From IMG/VR virus record IMGVR_UViG_2718217863_000002: DNA of 41,341 bases. The stretch is one strand, 5' to 3'. The stretch is from a virus. Lineage: Duplodnaviria; Heunggongvirae; Uroviricota; Caudoviricetes. The translations under genes and the position numbers were made by a program. Positions 8,719 to 33,221 of the stretch are shown piece by piece. The notes under the pieces were generated by a model. The model did no database searches and was not told where the DNA came from. It worked only from the letters and a program-made list of their open reading frames with translations. How positions within the stretch are numbered: the first letter of the stretch is position 1; each line of letters begins with the position of its first letter.

Positions 8719-11058
8719 CTAGCCCACCAGTTTCTGTAGGGCAGTAAGCCGATCGGTTATCAGTGAGGAAATACGCACAGGCCCCGCGTCCGCATTGAGG
8801 TGGATGCGGGACGGATTTGTATCCCCCTCGGTTAATAAAAAACTAGTGCTATTGAATTTTGTCCAGCCACAGTCAGCGTTAAGGTCTATTAGGGGGAATC
8901 CATATCGCAACGCCACGGCGCGTATGGCCGCTGCATAGTCAGAAACCCGCCCATAGCCATTTGTTTCACCGTCAACCCATGCCGCTGAACGTGGAGAATC
9001 ATAGTCCCCATTGAACGGCGTGGCCCACAGGATAGGTTTTGTTGGGGCCCGCGCCCGCAGTTTCTGAGCGATGATGTTCAGCGCGCCGTAAACGGTTGTA
9101 TTCACTGAGTCGGTGATACTTCCAATCGGAATATTTTGCGCCCAGTCGTTTGTTGCCCACGGACCGCAAATCCACGCCGCCGCCGATGTATCCAGAGCAT
9201 TGATTCGCACATCGTCGCACATGCTGATTTGCGTTGAGGAGCTATCCGGTTTGGCTATTTTCGAACCACCGACCCCGTGATTCAGAAAAGTGCAGCCCAG
9301 TTCTGCCGCGACAAGAGGTTGCCATTTGTTATAAGCAACGTTGCTGTCACCCATCACATCGATGACTTTTCCAGACCACGGACTGACCGTGCTACCACCG
9401 GGAACGACTACATATTTTTTGGCAATAATGGGGACGGCTATACGGGTGGTGATCCCGATTTTGGCGGTGCCGGAAGGAGGTGTTAGCTCGTAATCGGTGT
9501 AGTCCACCGATTCTGTAGTACCGTTCCCTTCGGTGCCGATAACCGTCCCGGCACTGTTCATATACACCGCGAGCGAAACTCCACTGCCGTTAACCCTCGC
9601 TGTGACTTTCCAGCGGTCTCCTGCTGTGTAATTAAAAATTGCACAGTCAAATGCAGCATTTGCCACCACACTGCCATCAGCACGGTTTATATATGCTCCT
9701 GAGGTAATCGTGACGTCGTGTTTAATAAAATCATAAACAAGAGAGTCCTCTATTGTTTGTACCCTGACATCCAGAGAATCGATCGATGCCAGTACTTTGG
9801 CCGTCTCAACGACAGCAAGTTTTTTAACAGCAATTTCCGCAGAATTACGACCCGTTATACCGATCTGTGTTGTCCCGGCAGGAACGTTAAGACGATAATT
9901 AGTATACTGCTGCGGGGTTGCCGTTCCCCGCCCTTCAACACCCAATACCATCCCGGCGCTGTTCATGTACACGGCCAGAGCAGTCGCCGATCCTGTCACA
10001 AGGGCTGTCACCAGCCAGCCATCCCCGTCGGAATGCGGAATGATTGCGCAGTTCAGCGCAGAGTTATCAGTGATGGCCCCTGTAGTTGGGTTGATAAATT
10101 TCCCGACTTGCCAGGCAGCTGCATAAGCATAACCAACAGAGATAGCTCCCTGGAGCGCATCGACGCGTGATGTTAACCCCGAAATACCGGATGATATGAC
10201 GGCTGACAGATAAGTTTTATCCGGCGTGGCGCGAACAAAATCAGGCTGAATAGCCCCCAACGCAGCAGCATAAGCACCGACCTTAAATATCCCTGCCGTA
10301 GTATTTTCAACCCGGATCCTGACGTAGGATGCGCCGGATGGAATGACATCTGTGATAACCGGCGTATTTATACCTGCGGCCAGAGCAAGCTGTGATTTAG
10401 ACGAAATAACAGCGCCAGCGGTGGACATCCAGAAAATATGGAACATAGCACCGGCATCCTGGAACCACGCCAGCACGGAAAAGGTTAACTTATCACCAAC
10501 CCTTACAGGCAGGCGGGCAAGGTCATAATATTTATCTGCAGACCATACGCCGGAATACTGTGCCACTGGAGTCGGTAACGAAATATTGGCATCAGTAGTG
10601 CTGAAGGTGATCACTGCTCCGCGATACCAGTCCCACGCACCGAATTTAGGATCATTTGCTGAATATTCATTCAGAGCATCAAACAGAATGTTCGCCCCGC
10701 GTAGCGAAGAATAAGATGGCATTTTCCGCCCGGTAGGCTGCAGCGTACCGGCGTTATTGATCACTTCTACAGCTAACGCGTTGTCATCCGGGCTACGGTA
10801 ATACGTGGTCGACCCCACCGGAATATTCGCGATATCCGCCTGCGCCGCTGCCAGCGTCTGGTATTGCTTACTGAGCGGGATCAGGTTCTGCCTGACCTCA
10901 TCGTTTTTCGCCATCATCTGGCGCCAGGTATCGAGTGGTTCACCGCCGCGGTCGTCAACCGTTCCGGCCGGACCGTTAACCAGCTCGTCAGCGCGCTTAA
11001 CGTTGTCCATGAATATTTCCGGCGTCGTCGTGCCCAGTGGCGGGTTAAGTTCGGCCAT
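8719..11058 (-). CDS. tail fibre / receptor-binding protein, variant A (in expression position after J)
   Basis: 779 aa; shared N-terminus MAELNPPLGTTTPEIF; C-terminal region with GDSN, GGS and ND motifs suggesting an SGNH-type hydrolase. Confidence 0.75.
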   Translation of the reverse strand: MAELNPPLGTTTPEIFMDNVKRADELVNGPAGTVDDRGGEPLDTWRQMMAKNDEVRQNLIPLSKQYQTLAAAQADIANIPVGSTTYYRSPDDNALAVEVINNAGTLQPTGRKMPSYSSLRGANILFDALNEYSANDPKFGAWDWYRGAVITFSTTDANISLPTPVAQYSGVWSADKYYDLARLPVRVGDKLTFSVLAWFQDAGAMFHIFWMSTAGAVISSKSQLALAAGINTPVITDVIPSGASYVRIRVENTTAGIFKVGAYAAALGAIQPDFVRATPDKTYLSAVISSGISGLTSRVDALQGAISVGYAYAAAWQVGKFINPTTGAITDNSALNCAIIPHSDGDGWLVTALVTGSATALAVYMNSAGMVLGVEGRGTATPQQYTNYRLNVPAGTTQIGITGRNSAEIAVKKLAVVETAKVLASIDSLDVRVQTIEDSLVYDFIKHDVTITSGAYINRADGSVVANAAFDCAIFNYTAGDRWKVTARVNGSGVSLAVYMNSAGTVIGTEGNGTTESVDYTDYELTPPSGTAKIGITTRIAVPIIAKKYVVVPGGSTVSPWSGKVIDVMGDSNVAYNKWQPLVAAELGCTFLNHGVGGSKIAKPDSSSTQISMCDDVRINALDTSAAAWICGPWATNDWAQNIPIGSITDSVNTTVYGALNIIAQKLRARAPTKPILWATPFNGDYDSPRSAAWVDGETNGYGRVSDYAAAIRAVALRYGFPLIDLNADCGWTKFNSTSFLLTEGDTNPSRIHLNADAGPVRISSLITDRLTALQKLVG

Positions 11059-11080
11059 GTTTTTTGCTCCAAAAAGAGGC

Positions 11081-11106
11081 TTCGCCCAAACGAGGGTTTG
11101 AGCGAA
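11081..11106. other. candidate 26-bp invertase crossover site (right), exact inverted copy of 5532-5557
   Basis: TTCGCCCAAACGAGGGTTTGAGCGAA is the exact reverse complement of 5532-5557; lies 22 nt upstream of the fibre A start, about 30 nt after the J stop. Confidence 0.45.
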
Positions 11107-15073: not shown

Positions 15074-15539
15074 GATTCGGCCACTCCTTATTCAGGGCGA
15101 TATCAAGCAACGAACTTCCGACTATCCATTCCGGGTAATGCCCCCATCCAGACGGCGGCAATGGGCGCTCCCAGAGTTCTACTGGCGCGGTATATCTCCA
15201 GTAAAGTCCGCCTTCTGGCGTGGGGCCTTTATAAATATCCGTGAAACGACACACGTAATTTTTCAGCCCTACAGGCGTTAATAACGGTATGTTGAACCAC
15301 GCCGCCCCATCTGATAACTCATCCCGAAACCACGCCTCAAAAGCCTGCGCCTGGGCATCAGAAAAAATCCAGGCCAGATCTGTTTGGGTTGGTGTCGAGG
15401 TGTAGGCACGCCGCTGCCGTGCCCGGCCAGTTACCATCTGAGTCCGTTTCAGAGGAGATACAGGAGTTAAACCAAAACTCTCTTTAAGCGGACCAGGCAG
15501 GTAAGCGGAGGGGTAATAAAGCGTTGTGGTGATAGCCAT
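15060..15539 (-). CDS. minor/distal tail protein
   Basis: 159 aa, immediately downstream of the tape measure gene. Confidence 0.5.
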   Translation of the reverse strand: MAITTTLYYPSAYLPGPLKESFGLTPVSPLKRTQMVTGRARQRRAYTSTPTQTDLAWIFSDAQAQAFEAWFRDELSDGAAWFNIPLLTPVGLKNYVCRFTDIYKGPTPEGGLYWRYTAPVELWERPLPPSGWGHYPEWIVGSSLLDIALNKEWPNHDAD

Positions 15540-17974
15540 CAGCTAATTTTCCTCCCCGAGGTAGTTTTCCCCATCAAGGCCTTATGCAAATCACCCTGAC
15601 CGCTTGCGACTGAATTAACCGCCTTCCGGTATCCCCTTTCTGCCCCCTCATCTGCAGCTTTACGGACCAGCGCCAACGTTGCATCGGAAGGGTTACCATT
15701 GATGGGGATATTGATTGTGGGCGAATAAATCGCGCCGCCACCTGTTGACTGGTTTGCAACTCGATCCAGAGTGGCATCCAGTTTTGCGCTGGTTTTAGCT
15801 GTCGTAACGCGCTCACCTTTCTGCAGGAGCCAGGTTCCTGTTTCGGGCACAGAGTCGATACCGTCGTGAGCCTGTCCATGAAGCGCCGATCCGATAGCAG
15901 TCATGAACACGCCAGCAGCAGCTGCCGCAGCTATTGCTTGGGTTGACGCCACCACGGGACCTACATAGGGAACACCAATCCAGGCAGTGAAGGCACTCAA
16001 CGCTGCCATTGCTACCTGAGCAGCCGCATATTGCAGTAATGCAGCCCCAACAGATTGAATGAATGTCGCCGCAAAGTCCTGAGCGTTTAATTTACCGGTT
16101 TCCGCCCAGTTAATTACCATATCAGTTAAACTACTAAACGTTTGTGTACCTACTTGCTGCATATTTGCATATAGGTTTGAATATGCAGCAGCTTGATCTG
16201 ATATTCCAGAAACGAAACCTGCGACACCATCGTTTTGTAACTCTTCTAACTTCTTATAGTGTTCCTCTTGAATTCTTAGCCTTTCATTCAGCGAGTTTTG
16301 AAGCGCTTCTTTCTTTTTATCGTATAGACTTTTTTCAATATCTCCAGACTGAAATTGATTTAAAAGCTCTTCCTGTCGAGAAGCAAAATCTTGCTGAATA
16401 TCATTATTATCCTGCATGCGTGAACGTTCACGACTACCAGAATAACGGCCAACTATTTGGTTTTCAAACCCTTGGCGGACTAATTTATTCTGTCTTTCGA
16501 GATCTGAAACATATTCAGCTACTTTCGCATTTTCCTGATTAAGCCGTAACTCTTCCTTCTTGGAATCAAGGATTTTAGCCGCAGTTCGAAGTTGTTCCTT
16601 CTGCCCTTCAGATAATTTTTTCAGGTTTCCGCTGGTTATATCAAAATTAATCTTCTCCAGCTCGGTTACTTCTGCAGTTTTTTTACCGGTTGTTTCAATG
16701 AGGGCGGCCTGCTTCTGTAAATCAAGAAGCCTACTTTTGAAAGCGTTGTCAGTCGGATTGCTTTTTGGTTTTATTTTGGGCTGATTCTGGTTAGACTCCC
16801 CTTTTCCCAACGAAAAATCATTATCCTTAGCCGTATCAATGCCAAGATCAGAAAGAAGAGATGTGAGTCCTTTCGCTCCTCTATCTACCTGCTCCGGGGT
16901 CATTCTTGACTTTATCGCGCGAAGAAATTGAAGACGTTTAGTTAAAAAGTCTAATTCGTCTTTTTGTTCCTTACTTTGATTCCCTCGTTTATTAAGGAAT
17001 TCAATGCGCTGTGAAATATCACTTTCATCAGCAGCATTATAATTACCTGATACAGCACCTATACGAGAGCGGGTATAAGTAGCAATGGCCCCCAAGCCAC
17101 CAGCAATACGCCCCACAACCCCGGCAAGGCTTATGGCTTCACCAACCAAGTCTGATAGCCCCTGAAGAACAGCAGGATCGGTGAAGACGTCACGAATGTC
17201 ATCAAGCCCATCCTGCAATGGCGTAAGGTCAACCTTAGCCAGCCCCGAAGCCATTTCCATTTTAAGACCGCGGGCGCTAGTCTCTATATCCTGAAAGAAC
17301 TGATTAACCTTAACAAGGTTATCAATATCTTCTTGCGGTGGTGCGACACCAAAATCTTTTGATAGCTGGATAAACTGTTTCAGCTTCTCGTTGTTGTTGT
17401 CGAACAACGGCAGCATTTTTGACAGGTCATTACCCAGACTTTCGAGAATATTAGTTTTCCCGGCCTGAGTGGGTATTTTCTGTAATGCTTCACTGATTGC
17501 CATCAGCTGCTTATCTGGGGATTGCTGAGCCAGCTTCTGAGCTGAAAGCCCCAAAGTATCCAGCGCCTGAGCAGCCTCACCTGATTTATTCAGGACCGCA
17601 TCGCCGACCTTATCATTAATGTCTTTGAAAATATCGGCTATGTTGTCACCGGTTAAACCGGCTTGTTCAGCAGCATATTGCCAGGATAACAAATCCTGGG
17701 TGGACATTTTAAGAGATTTTGCCCAGCGATCAACTTCTGTAACCTGCTGTGCAGTATTTTTAACAATGGCTAGCCCAGCAGCGCCAATACCAACAGCTGC
17801 GGTAGCCGCTGCAGCCCCCACAGCAATGATTGAAGAACTTACCTCTTTAGCGTCTTTTTTTACCTGGTCGCGCCACTTCTGAGAAGATCTTTCGGCTTTA
17901 TCCATGCCCTGAACAAATCCACCTACTTTAGCGATCAGGTCGATTGTTAACGTACCGAGGGACTTGCCAGACAT
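15539..17974 (-). CDS. tail tape measure protein
   Basis: 811 aa; Ala/Gly-rich hydrophobic N-terminal segment, long coiled-coil-like middle, C-terminal hydrophobic block. Confidence 0.85.
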   Translation of the reverse strand: MSGKSLGTLTIDLIAKVGGFVQGMDKAERSSQKWRDQVKKDAKEVSSSIIAVGAAAATAAVGIGAAGLAIVKNTAQQVTEVDRWAKSLKMSTQDLLSWQYAAEQAGLTGDNIADIFKDINDKVGDAVLNKSGEAAQALDTLGLSAQKLAQQSPDKQLMAISEALQKIPTQAGKTNILESLGNDLSKMLPLFDNNNEKLKQFIQLSKDFGVAPPQEDIDNLVKVNQFFQDIETSARGLKMEMASGLAKVDLTPLQDGLDDIRDVFTDPAVLQGLSDLVGEAISLAGVVGRIAGGLGAIATYTRSRIGAVSGNYNAADESDISQRIEFLNKRGNQSKEQKDELDFLTKRLQFLRAIKSRMTPEQVDRGAKGLTSLLSDLGIDTAKDNDFSLGKGESNQNQPKIKPKSNPTDNAFKSRLLDLQKQAALIETTGKKTAEVTELEKINFDITSGNLKKLSEGQKEQLRTAAKILDSKKEELRLNQENAKVAEYVSDLERQNKLVRQGFENQIVGRYSGSRERSRMQDNNDIQQDFASRQEELLNQFQSGDIEKSLYDKKKEALQNSLNERLRIQEEHYKKLEELQNDGVAGFVSGISDQAAAYSNLYANMQQVGTQTFSSLTDMVINWAETGKLNAQDFAATFIQSVGAALLQYAAAQVAMAALSAFTAWIGVPYVGPVVASTQAIAAAAAAGVFMTAIGSALHGQAHDGIDSVPETGTWLLQKGERVTTAKTSAKLDATLDRVANQSTGGGAIYSPTINIPINGNPSDATLALVRKAADEGAERGYRKAVNSVASGQGDLHKALMGKTTSGRKIS

Positions 17975-17992
17975 TTAATTTCTCCAGGCAAC

Positions 17993-18020
17993 AAAAAAAC
18001 CCCGCCGAAGCGAGGTTTTG
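17993..18020 (-). terminator. rho-independent terminator after the lipoprotein gene
   Basis: ACCCCGC-cgaa-GCGAGGT hairpin with T-run on the minus strand, between the lipoprotein stop and the tape measure start. Confidence 0.45.
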
Positions 18021-18043
18021 GTTTGTTTATATATTGGTTAAAA

Positions 18044-18436
18044 TTATTTAACTTTTCCCGTATAGCCCGCATTCACCTGAGCATCAGCGGAGTCTATTTT
18101 CCCATGGGAGTAAAAAATAGTATGTGCTTCAGCACCTGTATATCCACCATAGGAGTTTTTAGCATTAATGGTTATCGGAATAAGCCATCCATATCGCATA
18201 GCCCCACCTGATTCAGCTAAAATGCCATCCTTAAACCATGCTTTCTCTGGTGTACCAAAAGTATAATGAGCAGAATATGGGTCTTTTAACATCCTTCCCC
18301 ACCAATCCTTTATCTGCTGCTGATAGTTATCCGGTAACACCCCATAATCAGCCGAGTGCAACTGAACTTGGCTAGGTGGATTTGCGGCGCACGCAGTTAA
18401 CAATAATGCAAATAACATAATCGCTATTTTCTTCAT
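18044..18436 (-). CDS. lipoprotein (insert between tail chaperone and tape measure genes)
   Basis: Signal peptide MKKIAIMLFALLLTAC with lipobox LLTAC; 130 aa; lower GC than neighbours; own terminator. Confidence 0.6.
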   Translation of the reverse strand: MKKIAIMLFALLLTACAANPPSQVQLHSADYGVLPDNYQQQIKDWWGRMLKDPYSAHYTFGTPEKAWFKDGILAESGGAMRYGWLIPITINAKNSYGGYTGAEAHTIFYSHGKIDSADAQVNAGYTGKVK

Positions 18437-18499
18437 ATCCCTATCCCATTGGTTATTGTTGTACTGATGATATTGATACCTACAGCGATTTAAAAGTTA

Positions 18500-18814
18500 T
18501 CAATGCCAACTTTTCATAGCTTCTTCAAGAGATAATGGCGCTTCGTTGATGTGCGGTGCAAAGTCACTAACCTTGAACGGAGGCGTGTTCTTTGCCTTAT
18601 TGATGTTAGCCAGGACAGAAGCCACCAGCGAAGCCCCCCACTCGGTACGCATCATAACGTTAAGCTGACCATACTTATTACGGTACTTTACCCACACCTG
18701 AAACTCACGAAGGCTCATTCGCTCCTGAGCCTCCGCTATGGTCCGCCCACCGATGCCGTTCATGACTAACTCACACCAGAACTCGTCTTCTCCTGTGAGT
18801 TCGTAGTCTTTCCC
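18500..18814 (-). CDS. tail assembly chaperone GT extension (-1 frame)
   Basis: ORF 18500-18763 lies in the -1 frame relative to G; the -1 frame is open from the slippery site through its ATG. Confidence 0.55.
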   Translation of the reverse strand, partial: GKDYELTGEDEFWCELVMNGIGGRTIAEAQERMSLREFQVWVKYRNKYGQLNVMMRTEWGASLVASVLANINKAKNTPPFKVSDFAPHINEAPLSLEEAMKSWH

Positions 18815-19149
18815 AGATCGTTGACTTCCTGGATGACGGCCAGCAAAGCAATAACGATCGGCCCATCGAGCGCGCCACGATCTGGGGTAGCAGTTCCAAG
18901 AATGTCAGCCGCGGTAAACACTGGGGCGCCGTCCTGATCGCAAATATGCGCCGCAATGCGCTCAGCAATCGGGTCCGATTTCCCGTTATACGCCAGCAGT
19001 TCAGCTTTAGTGGTGTGGTAGCCCATCGGGCGCACATAGACGGTTGCGATATGCTCTTTCCTGTCACGGCCTTTCCACTTAATTTCTTTTTTCACGGGAC
19101 GCCCGGTAAAGGCACCGGTTTCTTTTAACGTATCGAGAGTAAGTTGCAT
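18766..19149 (-). CDS. tail assembly chaperone (lambda G-like)
   Basis: 127 aa, between major tail and tape measure genes; carries the slippery heptamer near its 3' end. Confidence 0.6.
   Translation of the reverse strand: MQLTLDTLKETGAFTGRPVKKEIKWKGRDRKEHIATVYVRPMGYHTTKAELLAYNGKSDPIAERIAAHICDQDGAPVFTAADILGTATPDRGALDGPIVIALLAVIQEVNDLGKTTNSQEKTSSGVS
18808..18814 (-). other. programmed -1 frameshift slippery heptamer G_GGA_AAG
   Basis: Minus-strand GGGAAAG with GGA and AAG in the zero frame of G (frame checked from coordinates). Confidence 0.55.
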
Positions 19150-19160
19150 TTCAGCTCCTG

Positions 19161-19185
19161 AATTGAAAAGCCCGGATAACCGGGC
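19161..19185 (-). terminator. terminator/attenuator after the major tail gene
   Basis: GCCCGG-ttat-CCGGGC hairpin then TTTTCAATT on the minus strand. Confidence 0.45.
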
Positions 19186-19192
19186 ATATTAA

Positions 19193-19684
19193 TTACGCTG
19201 CGGCCTTCGGCACCCATACGGAAGAGCCAGACCGCTGGATCGTGGCGGAGGTCGTCACAACAGCGTTACCCTGAAAATCAAACGGGAAGTCGGAAACGTA
19301 ACCCTGGAAAATGAACCAGGTGCGATCCGATGGCAGCACCAGGCCATCAACAGCATCCTCAGCGCCAGGAGCGGCGGCTGTCGGGATACTGGTTCCATCT
19401 GACCAGCCAACCGCAAAAGTTAACGGCGTCTGATCATTCGCTTCAGCGAGACCATGCAACATAATGTGGCTGGCGTTCGTCGGATCAGCGTTAAGCCCGA
19501 CGGTTGCGGCCGCAGGCGTTTTAAGCCCCTTTTTGTAGGTTCTTGAATCCCGCTCACTCAGACAGGTATCTTCAATCTGATCGGCAGGGTTGCCGCCGGG
19601 GTTGAAACTGGTGATGCATTCAACCTCGCTGACCACGCCAGACTTGAGCACAAAAAATTGCGTGCCTTGCGTTAATACAGACAT
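19193..19684 (-). CDS. major tail protein
   Basis: ATG at 19684 with GGAGA RBS ([12 protein letters not shown]...); 163 aa; track ORF starts at an upstream GTG. Confidence 0.7.
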
Positions 19685-19699
19685 GTTTTGTCTCCATAA

Positions 19700-19723
19700 A
19701 AGAAAAACCCGCACAAGGCGGGT
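19700..19723 (-). terminator. hairpin plus T-run immediately upstream of the major tail gene
   Basis: ACCCGC-cttgt-GCGGGT then TTTTTCTTTT on the minus strand. Confidence 0.35.
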
Positions 19724-19740
19724 CAGTTTGGGGTTGTTGG

Positions 19741-32642: not shown

Positions 32643-33221
32643 TCAAGCAGTTTCTGGCTCACTTTGCAAGTAAAATCTGTCGCGATTTGTGCCGAATGCG
32701 TCACACATTGGTGCGTACAGCATCGATTCTGCCAAACTTATCCATGCATCAACTCTTCTCCTACAGGTCATAAAGCACCAGTCAGGATGCTTTTCATAGA
32801 GCTCTTCCGCTATGCGGCGTTTGCTCTTCCGTAACCGGTAATGCTCCACCAGCAGGTGATACAGCTCTTTGTGACCACCCGTAATAAGGACTGCCCCCAG
32901 TACCTTATCAATCAGCAGTCCTTCATCGTCTGTACAGAAGGCCAGGCCGCTTTTGTTTTTCCCCGCGAGTATTTCACGAAAAAACGCCTCAAGCTCAGGC
33001 TTCGAGATGCCAGACTTCTTCATCCGGCGTAATGCTTCGTTGATGGCTGTTTTAGTGACTTTCCCGGAAGCCAGTAACTGGTTAAACATATTGCCGCCAC
33101 TACCGCCGCCGATGTAAGACCAGCGGCCCCACATGCGCAGCTTCCCCTGAATCCAGATGGCCTCCAGCGTTTTCAGCCTGACCATTTCACCAGCTTTTCC
33201 AACCTCGGACGGGTTAATCAT
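32643..33221 (-). CDS. putative late antitermination protein (Q-like)
   Basis: ATG at 33221 with GGAGAA RBS (MINPSEVG...); RMWGRW motif resembles the RWGAW motif of some Q proteins; position directly upstream of the lysis genes. Confidence 0.45.
   Translation of the reverse strand: MINPSEVGKAGEMVRLKTLEAIWIQGKLRMWGRWSYIGGGSGGNMFNQLLASGKVTKTAINEALRRMKKSGISKPELEAFFREILAGKNKSGLAFCTDDEGLLIDKVLGAVLITGGHKELYHLLVEHYRLRKSKRRIAEELYEKHPDWCFMTCRRRVDAWISLAESMLYAPMCDAFGTNRDRFYLQSEPETA

What the first reader, a model, noticed from the sequence alone, without database searches (positions are those of the whole stretch)
17993..18436. Lipoprotein gene with its own terminator between the tail chaperone and tape measure genes
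A 130-aa lipoprotein (lipobox LLTAC) with lower GC than its neighbours interrupts the G/GT-H junction, which is normally contiguous, and is followed by a hairpin plus T-run before the tape measure start. The position and secretion signal suggest a moron, possibly a superinfection-exclusion or surface-modifying factor. A terminator here would also require read-through for tape measure expression.
Basis: partly seen in the sequence, partly recalled or inferred. Interest (0 to 1): 0.4.

Follow-up and report, generated by a model that had tools for sequence, protein, structure and literature searches.

The report
Prophage lipoprotein moron before tape-measure gene
A small outer-membrane lipoprotein gene of unknown function sits as swappable cargo between the tail-chaperone and tape-measure genes of an E. 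coli/Klebsiella prophage, the same place and layout as the first "moron" ever described (HK97 gene 15), so it is a new example of a known kind, not a new kind of element.

Summary
A 130-aa lipoprotein gene (18044-18436, minus strand) lies between the G/GT tail-chaperone genes and the tape-measure (TMP) gene. A strong hairpin with a T7 run (17993-18019) follows it, then GGAG and the TMP start codon.

It is the cargo of a moron slot:
- Homology to sister phages stops at the T stop codon and resumes at the hairpin.
- 76 of 76 sister phages fill the slot, with one of five unrelated envelope-protein genes.
- HK97 gene 15 has the same position and anatomy.
- Phage ES18 gp20 is a homolog at the same site, annotated "possible moron" in the record.

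The protein belongs to a large family with no Pfam match, seen only on prophages or mobile elements in the contexts sampled here. The gene is under purifying selection (dN/dS about 0.1). Outer-membrane sorting is predicted.

The terminator is not the gene's own. The same hairpin-plus-SD element sits at an empty chaperone|TMP junction and after unrelated cargo. A Q-like antiterminator in the window explains late read-through.

A superinfection-exclusion role is plausible but untested.

Verdict: new member of a known kind, modest interest.

The parts
18766..19149 (-). Tail assembly chaperone gene G (127 aa)
   Evidence: Pfam Phage_TAC_13 E 1.7e-30; PHROG 1749
18808..18814 (-). Slippery heptamer GGGAAAG for the -1 frameshift that makes G-T
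   Evidence: Found in the G frame inside the region where the T frame is open, from 18904
18500..18763 (-). T part of the G-T chaperone (87 aa as a stand-alone ORF)
   Evidence: Pfam Phage_tail_T E 2e-07, above the cut-off. Homology to sister phages ends at its stop codon
18019..18505 (-). Exchangeable cargo cassette: 63-nt spacer, lipoprotein gene and 3' spacer
   Evidence: blastn to vB_EcoS-733R5 and KpF5 breaks at 18506/18491 and resumes at 18018. Five unrelated cargo families occupy this interval in 76/76 sister loci
18467..18494 (-). Candidate sigma-70 promoter, TTTAAA-16 nt-TATCAT (weak, unproven)
   Evidence: Consensus scan, 9 of 12 matches. The region gave 11 such sites against 6.2 +/- 2.8 in shuffles, so this is weak evidence
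18044..18436 (-). Lipoprotein gene (130 aa), the finding itself
   Evidence: ORF; PHROG 35631 E 3e-59 and PHROG 2320 E 2e-22, both of unknown function; 152 homologs; 7,856 50%-identity clusters at E<=0.001; dN/dS about 0.1; AF2 model pLDDT 85
18389..18436 (-). Signal peptide and lipobox (residues 1-16, LTAC; Cys16 is the lipidated residue; +2 is Ala)
   Evidence: Sequence. Cys invariant in 51/51 and no Asp at +2 in 51/51
17993..18019 (-). Intrinsic-terminator hairpin (AAAACCUCGC-UUCG-GCGGGGUUUU) plus U7 run; resident junction element
   Evidence: Scan; fold -17.7 kcal/mol, z -3.98; 93% of cells paired over 24 distinct junctions against 42-73% for slid controls; the same element at an empty junction in L183. 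Sub-threshold Rfam hits only, each spanning the hairpin
17982..17985 (-). Shine-Dalgarno GGAG of the tape measure gene, 7 nt before its ATG and 7 nt after the U-run
   Evidence: Sequence. TTTTTT(T)AT(T)GCCYGGAGA is conserved across junctions
15539..17974 (-). Tape measure protein gene (811 aa)
   Evidence: Pfam Tape_meas_lam_C E 7.5e-14; PHROG 2854 E 5e-290
32643..33221 (-). Q-like late antiterminator gene, directly upstream of the lysis cassette
   Evidence: Pfam DUF1133 E 3e-93 and Phage_antitermQ 40.4 bits (cut-off 26); PHROG 753 'anti-termination protein Q-like' E 4e-70; position

Best explanation
The gene is the cargo of a moron slot between the tail-chaperone (G/G-T) and tape-measure genes of a lambdoid E. 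coli/Klebsiella prophage. The prophage has an HK97-type head, a lambda-type tail and a Q-like antiterminator.

Shown:
- The interval from the T stop codon to the hairpin (about 18019-18505) is an exchangeable cassette.
- Its product has a signal peptide, a lipobox and no inner-membrane retention residue. By the +2 rule it should be lipidated and sent to the outer membrane, with a roughly 105-aa alpha+beta domain in the periplasm.
- It belongs to a large, unnamed family under purifying selection. Every context examined here was a prophage or another mobile element.
- The hairpin, U-run and SD just downstream are a resident feature of the chaperone|TMP junction. They are shared by phages with other cargo and by a phage with none.

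Inferred:
- In the lysogen, a weak promoter in the 63-nt spacer transcribes the gene. The resident terminator stops that transcript before the tape measure gene.
- In lytic growth, Q-modified polymerase reads through this and the other late-operon terminators. The lipoprotein is then also made late.
- The protein acts in the cell envelope to protect the lysogen and/or the phage's progeny, by blocking adsorption or DNA entry (superinfection exclusion).

My confidence by step: moron-type cargo 0.9; exported outer-membrane lipoprotein 0.85; resident terminator with Q read-through 0.7; phage-exclusion function 0.4.
For: Cassette boundaries.

Slot content: the slot was occupied in 76/76 sister loci by five unrelated cargo families, all envelope proteins (three lipoproteins, one secreted, one 2-TM).

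Precedents at the same site:
- HK97 gene 15 has the same position and anatomy.
- ES18 gp20 is a homolog (30% identity, E 1e-18) immediately before its TMP. The record notes it as 'possible moron' and annotates a terminator.

Mobility of the family:
- 15 of 22 family clusters in IMG/VR lie directly upstream of TMP genes of 7 lineages and at least 3 Pfam architectures.
- Other members lie beside cI on the same strand, the position rexAB holds in lambda.
- Others lie after TMP, between tail genes K and I, or near ant/gtr.

Lipoprotein features. Purifying selection.

Terminator. It is resident and generic.

Q-like antiterminator. Further terminator-like hairpins in the same late operon lie at 19185-19170 and 19724-19706.

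Literature precedent for prophage lipoproteins and morons that exclude phages: PMC3594210, PMC11893012, PMC9586334, PMC3952083.
Against: - No functional data exist for any member of the family.
- There is no match to PADLOC, Pfam or NCBIfam models.
- The promoter is only a 9/12 consensus match, in a region where such matches are about as common as chance. One sister cargo type has no detectable promoter.
- The invariant motifs LKDPYSA and NAKNSYGGYTG are shared by members in phages with very different tails and hosts. That fits a conserved host ligand better than a phage-specific target.
- Cargo type does not track the TMP. TMPs 95-99% identical to the window's are paired with an unrelated cargo. 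One 90%-identity lipoprotein cluster sits before TMPs of about 785 and about 1,100 aa.
Confidence: 0.55

Rival explanations
1. It is a lysogenic-conversion factor for host fitness, not for phage exclusion. The outer-membrane lipoprotein would change envelope properties such as serum or complement resistance, stress tolerance or adhesion, as lambda Bor and Lom do.
For: - The invariant surface motifs across Enterobacterales and Pseudomonas members point to a conserved host ligand.
- The exact protein is carried on at least 1,000 contigs, mostly from the Klebsiella pneumoniae complex and other Enterobacteriaceae. The E. coli genomes that carry it are mostly of human origin.
- There is a weak NCBIfam hit to 'resistance to complement killing' (E 0.028), covering residues 1-79 and far below the cut-off.
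- Two family members carry a C-terminal PDZ domain, a periplasmic peptide-binding module.
Against: - The NCBIfam hit scores 14 bits against a cut-off of 258, so it is not evidence of homology.
- The positions the family favours (beside cI, beside TMP, near ant/gtr) are the classic sites of exclusion genes.
- There are no data either way.
Confidence: 0.2
2. It works in the lytic cycle. The gene has no working promoter of its own and is made only by late-operon read-through. It would protect released progeny from being wasted on lysing cells and debris (as T5 Llp does), or modulate the envelope at lysis.
For: - The gene is co-oriented with the late operon in every TMP-adjacent locus.
- Promoter evidence is weak, and absent for one sister cargo.
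- There is a literature precedent for progeny-preserving receptor blockers (Taylor et al. 2025, cited in PMC12952977; T5 Llp, PMC9586334).
Against: - Family members directly downstream of cI on the repressor strand in Pseudomonas prophages are placed for expression in the lysogen.
- Several homologs are preceded by a terminator plus a promoter-like TGn-extended -10, which indicates independent transcription units.
Confidence: 0.15
3. It is a tail structural or assembly component that belongs between G/GT and H.
For: Only its position inside the tail gene cluster, and its frequent adjacency to TMP genes.
Against: - A signal peptide with a lipobox sends the protein out of the cytoplasm, where tails assemble.
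- Sister phages with 93-100% identical T, and in one case a TMP 95-99% identical to the window's, carry unrelated genes in the slot.
- An ES18-like phage has nothing in the slot.
- Homologs lie beside cI or near gtr in other prophages.
Confidence: 0.02
4. It is a chance ORF or a decaying remnant with no function.
For: None beyond the lack of annotation.
Against: - dN/dS is 0.06-0.11.
- 13 columns are invariant across 51 homologs.
- The AF2 model is confident (pLDDT 85).
- There are thousands of family clusters.
Confidence: 0.02

Closest known systems
HK97 gene 15 moron (gp15, a superinfection-exclusion protein; Juhala et al. 2000; Cumby et al. 2012)
   Same: The position is identical, between the G/G-T chaperone and the tape measure gene. 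The anatomy is also identical: a short spacer, a small envelope-protein gene, a GC hairpin with a T-run, an SD, and the TMP ATG. Both are low-GC insertions in a late operon driven by Q-type antitermination.
   Different: gp15 is a 62-aa inner-membrane protein of the YebO family. This is a 130-aa lipoprotein predicted for the outer membrane, with no sequence relation to gp15. The exclusion function is demonstrated for gp15 and untested here.
Salmonella phage ES18 gp20 (annotated 'possible moron; function unknown')
   Same: It is a true homolog (30% identity, E 1e-18; same PHROG 2320) and also a lipoprotein. It lies immediately upstream of the TMP gene. It is followed by a nearly identical terminator/SD, AAACCTCGCTCCGGCGGGGTTTTTTATTGCCCGGAGAAAA.
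   Different: ES18 has a different tail backbone (DUF6246 chaperone-position gene; TMP of 1,124 aa). gp20 there is the last of three stacked morons. It carries an extra roughly 20-aa linker.
Cor (phi80, N15, HK022, mEp167) and T5 Llp: outer-membrane lipoproteins that block FhuA
   Same: They are small phage-encoded lipoproteins sorted to the outer membrane that act from the periplasmic side. They offer a plausible model for how this protein could work.
   Different: No homology. The PHROG 1119 (Cor) hit has E 0.002 and aligns to the N-terminal 60 residues (signal peptide and start of the mature protein) only. Llp (PDB 8a60) scores E 0.99. Cor and llp lie next to receptor-binding genes, not next to TMP. 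This protein is larger and has a different predicted fold.
Ltp of Streptococcus thermophilus phage TP-J34 (a lipoprotein that blocks DNA injection by targeting the TMP)
   Same: It is a prophage lipoprotein acting outside the cytoplasmic membrane, and a precedent for a lipoprotein that interferes with TMP-dependent DNA entry (PMC3952083; Bebeacua et al. 2013, cited in PMC10883804).
   Different: The host is Gram-positive and the gene is in the lysogeny module. No sequence match to any solved structure was found. Here the cargo type does not co-vary with the TMP, which argues against TMP-specific recognition.
Lpp exclusion lipoproteins of mEpimmI coliphages (Lpp021, Lpp010)
   Same: These lipoprotein genes lie inside the structural gene cluster of temperate coliphages and were shown to exclude cognate phages (PMC11893012).
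   Different: No relation is shown. tblastn of this protein against 50,697 phage records found only 6 records, none of them an mEp phage.

Membership tests
Moron (Juhala/Hendrix sense) | An extra gene lying between two genes that are adjacent in related phages | tested here: met
   The cassette is bounded by the T stop codon and the hairpin. Unrelated alternative cargo occupies the slot in sister phages. An ES18-like phage has an empty chaperone|TMP junction. In its own lineage no empty site was seen (0 of 76).
Moron (Juhala/Hendrix sense) | Base composition different from the flanking genes | tested here: met
   GC is 0.417 and GC3 0.359, against 0.50-0.53 and 0.56-0.57 for G and T. The difference from the TMP gene is small (0.458 and 0.403).
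Moron (Juhala/Hendrix sense) | Own promoter upstream | tested here: inconclusive
   TTTAAA-16-TATCAT at 18494-18467 matches 9 of 12 positions. The region has 11 such sites against 6.2 +/- 2.8 in shuffles. Promoter-like sites occur in some sister cassettes but not all.
Moron (Juhala/Hendrix sense) | Factor-independent terminator downstream | tested here: met
   A hairpin plus U7 is present. However, it is a resident junction element shared with other cargo and with an empty site, not cargo-specific.
Moron (Juhala/Hendrix sense) | Expression from the repressed prophage | not testable with these tools
   This needs lysogen RNA-seq or a reporter fusion.
Bacterial lipoprotein (Lgt/LspA/Lnt substrate) | Positively charged n-region, hydrophobic h-region, lipobox and an invariant Cys | tested here: met
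   MKK, then IAIMLFALL, then LTAC. Cys is invariant in 51/51. The lipobox fits the strict pattern in 43/51 and a relaxed pattern in 48/51.
Bacterial lipoprotein (Lgt/LspA/Lnt substrate) | Outer-membrane sorting (no Asp at +2 in Enterobacteriaceae) | tested here: met
   +2 is Ala here, and no Asp occurs at +2 in 51/51. The localisation itself is inferred from the +2 rule.
PHROG 2320 / PHROG 35631 (phage protein families of unknown function) | Significant profile match | tested here: met
   E 2.1e-22 and 3.1e-59. ES18 gp20 also matches PHROG 2320 (E 3e-35).
Cor superinfection-exclusion family (PHROG 1119) | Sequence similarity over the mature protein | tested here: not met
   E 0.0021, aligned only to residues 1-60, the signal peptide and the start of the mature protein.
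T5 Llp | Sequence or fold similarity to Llp (PDB 8a60) | tested here: not met
HK97 gp15 / YebO family | Small single-pass inner-membrane protein homologous to YebO | tested here: not met
   This protein is a 130-aa lipoprotein with a cleavable signal peptide. The HK97 gp15 gene (L109 204-392) is 62 aa and reads as unrelated by eye; no alignment was run. Only the position is shared.
Known anti-phage defence systems (PADLOC-DB) | Match to any defence-protein model | tested here: not met
   No family matched at E <= 1 for this protein or for two sister cargos.

The most novel reading that the evidence does not exclude
The LKDPYSA/NAKNSYGGYTG lipoproteins would be a new and very widespread class of prophage-borne, outer-membrane-anchored exclusion factors. 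They would act on a conserved periplasmic component or step needed for siphophage DNA entry, rather than on a phage-specific receptor. That would explain three things:
- motifs that are invariant across hosts;
- placement at the sites typical of exclusion genes (beside cI, beside TMP);
- free exchange between tail backbones.

A second, smaller point: the conserved roughly 40-nt hairpin/U-run/SD element upstream of TMP genes may act as a common docking and recombination joint. It would let envelope-protein cargo be swapped without disturbing TMP translation.
Probability: 0.2. Interest if true: 0.55.

Novelty: new member of a known kind. Interest (0 to 1): 0.3.

Why it matters
The element itself is textbook. 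A moron at the chaperone/tape-measure junction was described for HK97 in 2000, and a homolog of this very gene is annotated 'possible moron' in the ES18 record.

What is worth keeping is the protein family:
- It has no Pfam, NCBIfam or PADLOC model and no characterised member.
- It has thousands of sequence clusters.
- The exact protein occurs on at least 1,000 contigs, mostly from the Klebsiella pneumoniae complex and other Enterobacteriaceae.

If it excludes phages, it would matter for predicting the phage susceptibility of Klebsiella and E. coli lysogens, which is relevant to phage therapy. It would also add a Gram-negative lipoprotein exclusion family beyond Cor and Llp.

The comparative result also corrects a common annotation habit. 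The terminator belongs to the junction, not to the cargo.

Tried and rejected
- Family assignment by sequence. Pfam on the protein and on all 51 aligned homologs gave only signal-peptide-type hits (LPAM_1, weak DUF6491). NCBIfam gave nothing near the cut-offs and PADLOC gave nothing.
- PDB by sequence, with the single protein and with a profile: nothing.
- 'The terminator travels with the lipoprotein gene.' I rejected this after the motif scan (6 of 80 loci carry this cargo) and the empty junction in L183.
- 'Cargo specificity is coupled to the TMP.' I rejected this as a strict rule. TMPs 95-99% identical to the window's are paired with an unrelated cargo, and one lipoprotein cluster sits before very different TMPs.
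- Covariation support for the hairpin. The stem is mostly conserved rather than covarying, with only 2 double-sided changes, so the support is conservation and pairing, not covariation.
- Rfam on the region gave only sub-threshold hits, each spanning the hairpin.
- Domain fusions. Two PDZ fusions were found. One HTH_3 fusion is probably a gene-calling artefact next to cI. Neither is decisive.
- Literature. No paper was found on this family. The ES18 and HK97 gp15 primary papers are not held. The lysogen transcriptomics paper had nothing relevant.
Full report
**1. The observation**

All phage genes in this part of the window are on the minus strand. In order they are:
- the tail tube gene (about 19193-19685);
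- G (18766-19149; Phage_TAC_13, E 1.7e-30);
- T (18500-18763; Phage_tail_T, E 2e-07);
- a 130-aa ORF (18044-18436);
- an 811-aa tape measure gene (15539-17974; Tape_meas_lam_C; PHROG 2854, E 5e-290).

A lambda-type slippery heptamer GGGAAAG lies at 18814-18808, inside the stretch where the T frame is open. G/G-T is therefore a standard frameshifted chaperone pair.

The 130-aa product starts MKKIAIMLFALLLTAC. L-T-A-C fits the lipobox, and the Cys is invariant in 51 of 51 aligned homologs.

Twenty-four nucleotides after the stop codon comes AAAACCUCGC-UUCG-GCGGGGUUUU followed by more U's. The core stem is 18015-18000 and the U7 run is 17999-17993. GGAG follows at 17985-17982 and the tape measure ATG at 17974. 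The hairpin folds at -17.7 kcal/mol (z -3.98; 0 of 200 shuffles fold as well). The motif is unique in the window, with 0 matches expected by chance.

GC is 0.417 (GC3 0.359) against 0.50-0.53 (GC3 0.56-0.57) for G and T. The tape measure gene is also low (0.458, GC3 0.403). The gene is under purifying selection: dN/dS is 0.06-0.11 against homologs of intermediate divergence.

The GC contrast holds only on the upstream side.

**2. Where the window comes from**

The region is 100% identical to prophages in 10 of 5,426 complete E. coli genomes. The exact protein occurs on at least 1,000 contigs, mostly from the Klebsiella pneumoniae complex and other Enterobacteriaceae.

The prophage lies next to a partial icd-family dehydrogenase gene, iraM, ycgX and bluR. 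From memory this is the icd/e14 attachment region. It has an XRE-type repressor/Cro pair, RusA, a lysis cassette, an HK97-type head module and a lambda-type tail module.

Directly upstream of the lysis genes is a Q-like antiterminator at window 32643-33221. It matches DUF1133 (E 3e-93), Phage_antitermQ (40.4 bits, cut-off 26) and PHROG 753.

**3. It is exchangeable cargo in a known moron slot**

Nucleotide homology to Escherichia phage vB_EcoS-733R5 runs at 95% down to window 18506, the T stop codon. It then vanishes and resumes at 18018, the 5' edge of the hairpin. Klebsiella phage KpF5 shows the same pattern, with a break at 18491 and resumption at 18018.

Sister phages carry different genes in the slot:
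- 733R5 carries an unrelated 125-aa protein with a signal-peptidase-I type signal.
- KpF5 carries a 123-aa homologous lipoprotein (43% identity).
- ST16-OXA48phi5.3 and two E. coli prophages carry a 155-aa protein with two hydrophobic, transmembrane-like segments.

I surveyed 80 IMG/VR loci whose T protein is at least 89% identical. The slot was occupied in all 76 analysable loci, by five unrelated cargo families:

| Cargo family | Loci |
|---|---|
| This lipoprotein family | 46 |
| 2-TM protein | 15 |
| A second lipoprotein | 7 |
| The secreted protein | 7 |
| A third lipoprotein | 1 |

Every family is an envelope protein.

Cargo is swapped independently of the neighbours. A locus with the third lipoprotein has a TMP 95-99% identical to the window's. 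A locus with a 77%-identical copy of this lipoprotein has a TMP only 30-70% identical.

The position and layout match the first moron ever described. [quoted passage not shown] In the HK97 record it is followed by ACGACCCGCTATCAAGCGGGTTTTTTTTATGGGTGAAAATATG(H).

A true homolog of the present protein is gp20 of Salmonella phage ES18 (30% identity, E 1e-18; same PHROG 2320). It sits immediately before the ES18 tape measure gene. The record notes it as 'possible moron; function unknown' and annotates a terminator after it.

**4. The terminator belongs to the junction, not to the gene**

In 12 of 12 homolog contexts a GC hairpin plus T-run follows the lipoprotein gene. So it does in 20 of 22 IMG/VR family clusters.

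Four results show that the element is not cargo-specific:
- Homology with relatives that carry unrelated cargo starts exactly at the hairpin.
- The sequence ACCTCGC-N4-GCGGGG-T6-7-AT(T)GCCYGGAGA-ATG is conserved at nucleotide level before TMP genes of quite different families (window, KpF5, ES18, Serratia prophages, a lambda-like prophage). The loop is free to vary. Across 24 distinct junctions, 93% of cells are paired, against 42-73% for slid controls. There are only two double-sided changes, so this is conservation rather than covariation.
In the 80 loci returned, only 6 had a member of this family upstream, and 18 had an ORF of at least 600 aa downstream. The other upstream genes before TMPs are again mostly lipoproteins, secreted proteins or membrane proteins.
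- An ES18-like phage (L183) has its DUF6246 gene, which sits where the chaperone is expected, followed directly by CACCTCGCCTTCGCGGGGTTTTTTTATGCCCGGAGATAACGAATG and its TMP_3 tape measure gene. There is no cargo at all.

The hairpin, U-run and SD are therefore a resident feature of the chaperone|TMP junction, and cargo is inserted upstream of it.

The same late operon has two more terminator-like hairpins, at 19724-19706 before the tube gene and at 19185-19170 after it. Read-through is a general requirement of this operon, and the Q-like protein accounts for it. That last step is an inference from the lambdoid paradigm and is not shown here.

**5. The protein**

There is no Pfam, NCBIfam or PADLOC family. 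It matches PHROG 35631 and PHROG 2320, both of unknown function.

A word-indexed search found 152 homologs, all 'hypothetical'. A profile search of 1.84 billion cluster representatives found 7,856 at E <= 0.001 and 2,596 at E <= 1e-10.

Invariant positions are C16, D52, P53 and S55 (motif LKDPYSA), and N91, A92, K93, N94, S95, G97, Y99, T100 and G101 (motif NAKNSYGGYTG).

No family member has Asp at +2 (Ala in 37 of 51). Outer-membrane sorting is predicted by the +2 rule for Enterobacteriaceae, which is established knowledge.

Every genomic context examined is a prophage or another mobile element:
- immediately upstream of TMP genes; 15 of 22 IMG/VR family clusters are so placed, before TMPs of 7 lineages;
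- immediately downstream of a TMP (Edwardsiella);
- between tail genes K and I (Pseudomonas phage Medea1);
- directly after the cI-type repressor on the same strand, or near it in the immunity region (Pseudomonas and Brenneria);
- next to ant/gtr in a P22-like prophage;
- in integrase- or transposase-rich islets.

Homologs are not consistently structural.

**6. How it most likely works, and the rivals**

Shown:
- It is an exchangeable cassette.
- Its product is an exported lipoprotein.
- The gene is under purifying selection.
- The junction carries a resident terminator.
- A Q-like gene is present in the window.

Inferred:
- A weak promoter (TTTAAA-16-TATCAT, 18494-18467; 9 of 12, no better than the chance rate in this region) transcribes the gene in the lysogen.
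- The resident terminator insulates the tape measure gene.
- Late Q-modified transcription reads through, so the lipoprotein is also made late.

For function I commit to envelope-level protection against phage: superinfection exclusion and/or preservation of progeny. My probability for this is about 0.4. It rests on four things:
- the precedent at this exact site (HK97 gp15);
- the all-envelope cargo set of the slot;
- the family's placement at exclusion-gene sites beside cI;
- known phage lipoprotein excluders (Cor, Llp, Ltp, mEpimmI Lpp; PMC3594210, PMC9586334, PMC3952083, PMC11893012).

The invariant motifs across very different phages, and the lack of cargo-TMP coupling, argue that the target is a conserved host component. 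They argue against a particular receptor-binding protein or TMP as the target.

Rivals:
- a host-fitness conversion factor of the Bor/Lom type (0.2);
- a purely late, lytic-cycle role (0.15);
- a structural role (0.02), rejected by export, replaceability and the empty site;
- no function (0.02), rejected by selection.

**7. Comparison and novelty**

It works like, and is placed like, the HK97 gene 15 moron. It is not a member of the gp15/YebO, Cor, Llp or Ltp families; the tests are listed in the membership table.

It is a member of an unnamed family that includes ES18 gp20. The record for that phage already flags gp20 as a possible moron.

The finding is therefore a new member of a known kind. 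Its residual interest lies in the size and ubiquity of an uncharacterised prophage lipoprotein family, and in the conserved junction element.

**8. Limits**

- There are no expression or phenotype data.
- The promoter call is weak.
- Localisation is inferred from sequence rules.
- The IMG/VR surveys are capped at 80 loci each and biased toward close relatives of the query.
- The ES18 and HK97 gp15 primary papers could not be read. Statements about them rest on the GenBank records and on PMC3594210.

Noticed in passing
window 4919-11106: There is a probable invertible tail-fibre (host-range) segment. 393-nt inverted repeats (5532-5924 and 10714-11106, 85% complementary) cover the 5' ends of two convergent fibre-like genes: 5580-7739 (+), 719 aa, and 8719-11058 (-), 779 aa with an SGNH/GDSL hydrolase domain. 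A 189-aa 'recombinase family' gene lies at 4919-5488 (-) just outside. The layout resembles the Mu G or P1 C segments, but the repeats are unusually long.
   Followed up: partly
It stands before TMP genes and also before other ORFs of roughly 390-520 aa, after many different small genes. It may serve as a shared joint for cargo exchange.
   Followed up: partly
L230-L308 (sister phages), slot equivalent to window 18019-18505: All five cargo families found in this slot are envelope proteins: three different lipoproteins, one secreted protein and one 2-TM protein. No empty slot was seen in 76 loci. None of the other four has an assigned function; one matches only PHROG 8032, of unknown function.
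   Followed up: partly
window 19170-19185 and 19706-19724 (minus strand): Two more terminator-like hairpins with T-runs flank the tail tube gene: GACCCGCCTTGTGCGGGTT+TTTCTTTT before it and GCCCGGTTATCCGGGC+TTTTCAATT after it. The late operon therefore has at least three such sites within 2 kb.
   Followed up: no
window 15539-17974: The tape measure gene is itself mosaic and low in GC. Its central part (about 16100-16900) has GC 0.36-0.41. Nucleotide homology to vB_EcoS-733R5 is 82% over 18018-16461, absent over 16460-15873, and 93% from 15872 onward.
   Followed up: no
window 2668-4354 (minus strand): UmuD/UmuC-like translesion polymerase V genes lie near the prophage end. Just beyond them are a partial isocitrate/isopropylmalate-family dehydrogenase gene and iraM/ycgX/bluR, which from memory is the icd/e14 attachment region.
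   Followed up: no
proteins P0162, P0194, P0240, P0121: Some family members are longer. Two carry a C-terminal PDZ domain. One has three tandem copies of the domain (464 aa). One has an N-terminal HTH_3, probably a gene-call fusion with the neighbouring cI-type repressor.
   Followed up: partly
L008-L010 (Serratia prophages), L017 (ES18), L018 (Medea1): In ES18-like and some Pseudomonas phages the same tail junctions hold stacks of several accessory genes (KilA-N, P22-type antirepressor, HTH regulators, a DUF4041 protein). The lipoprotein gene is always the last one before the structural gene.
   Followed up: no
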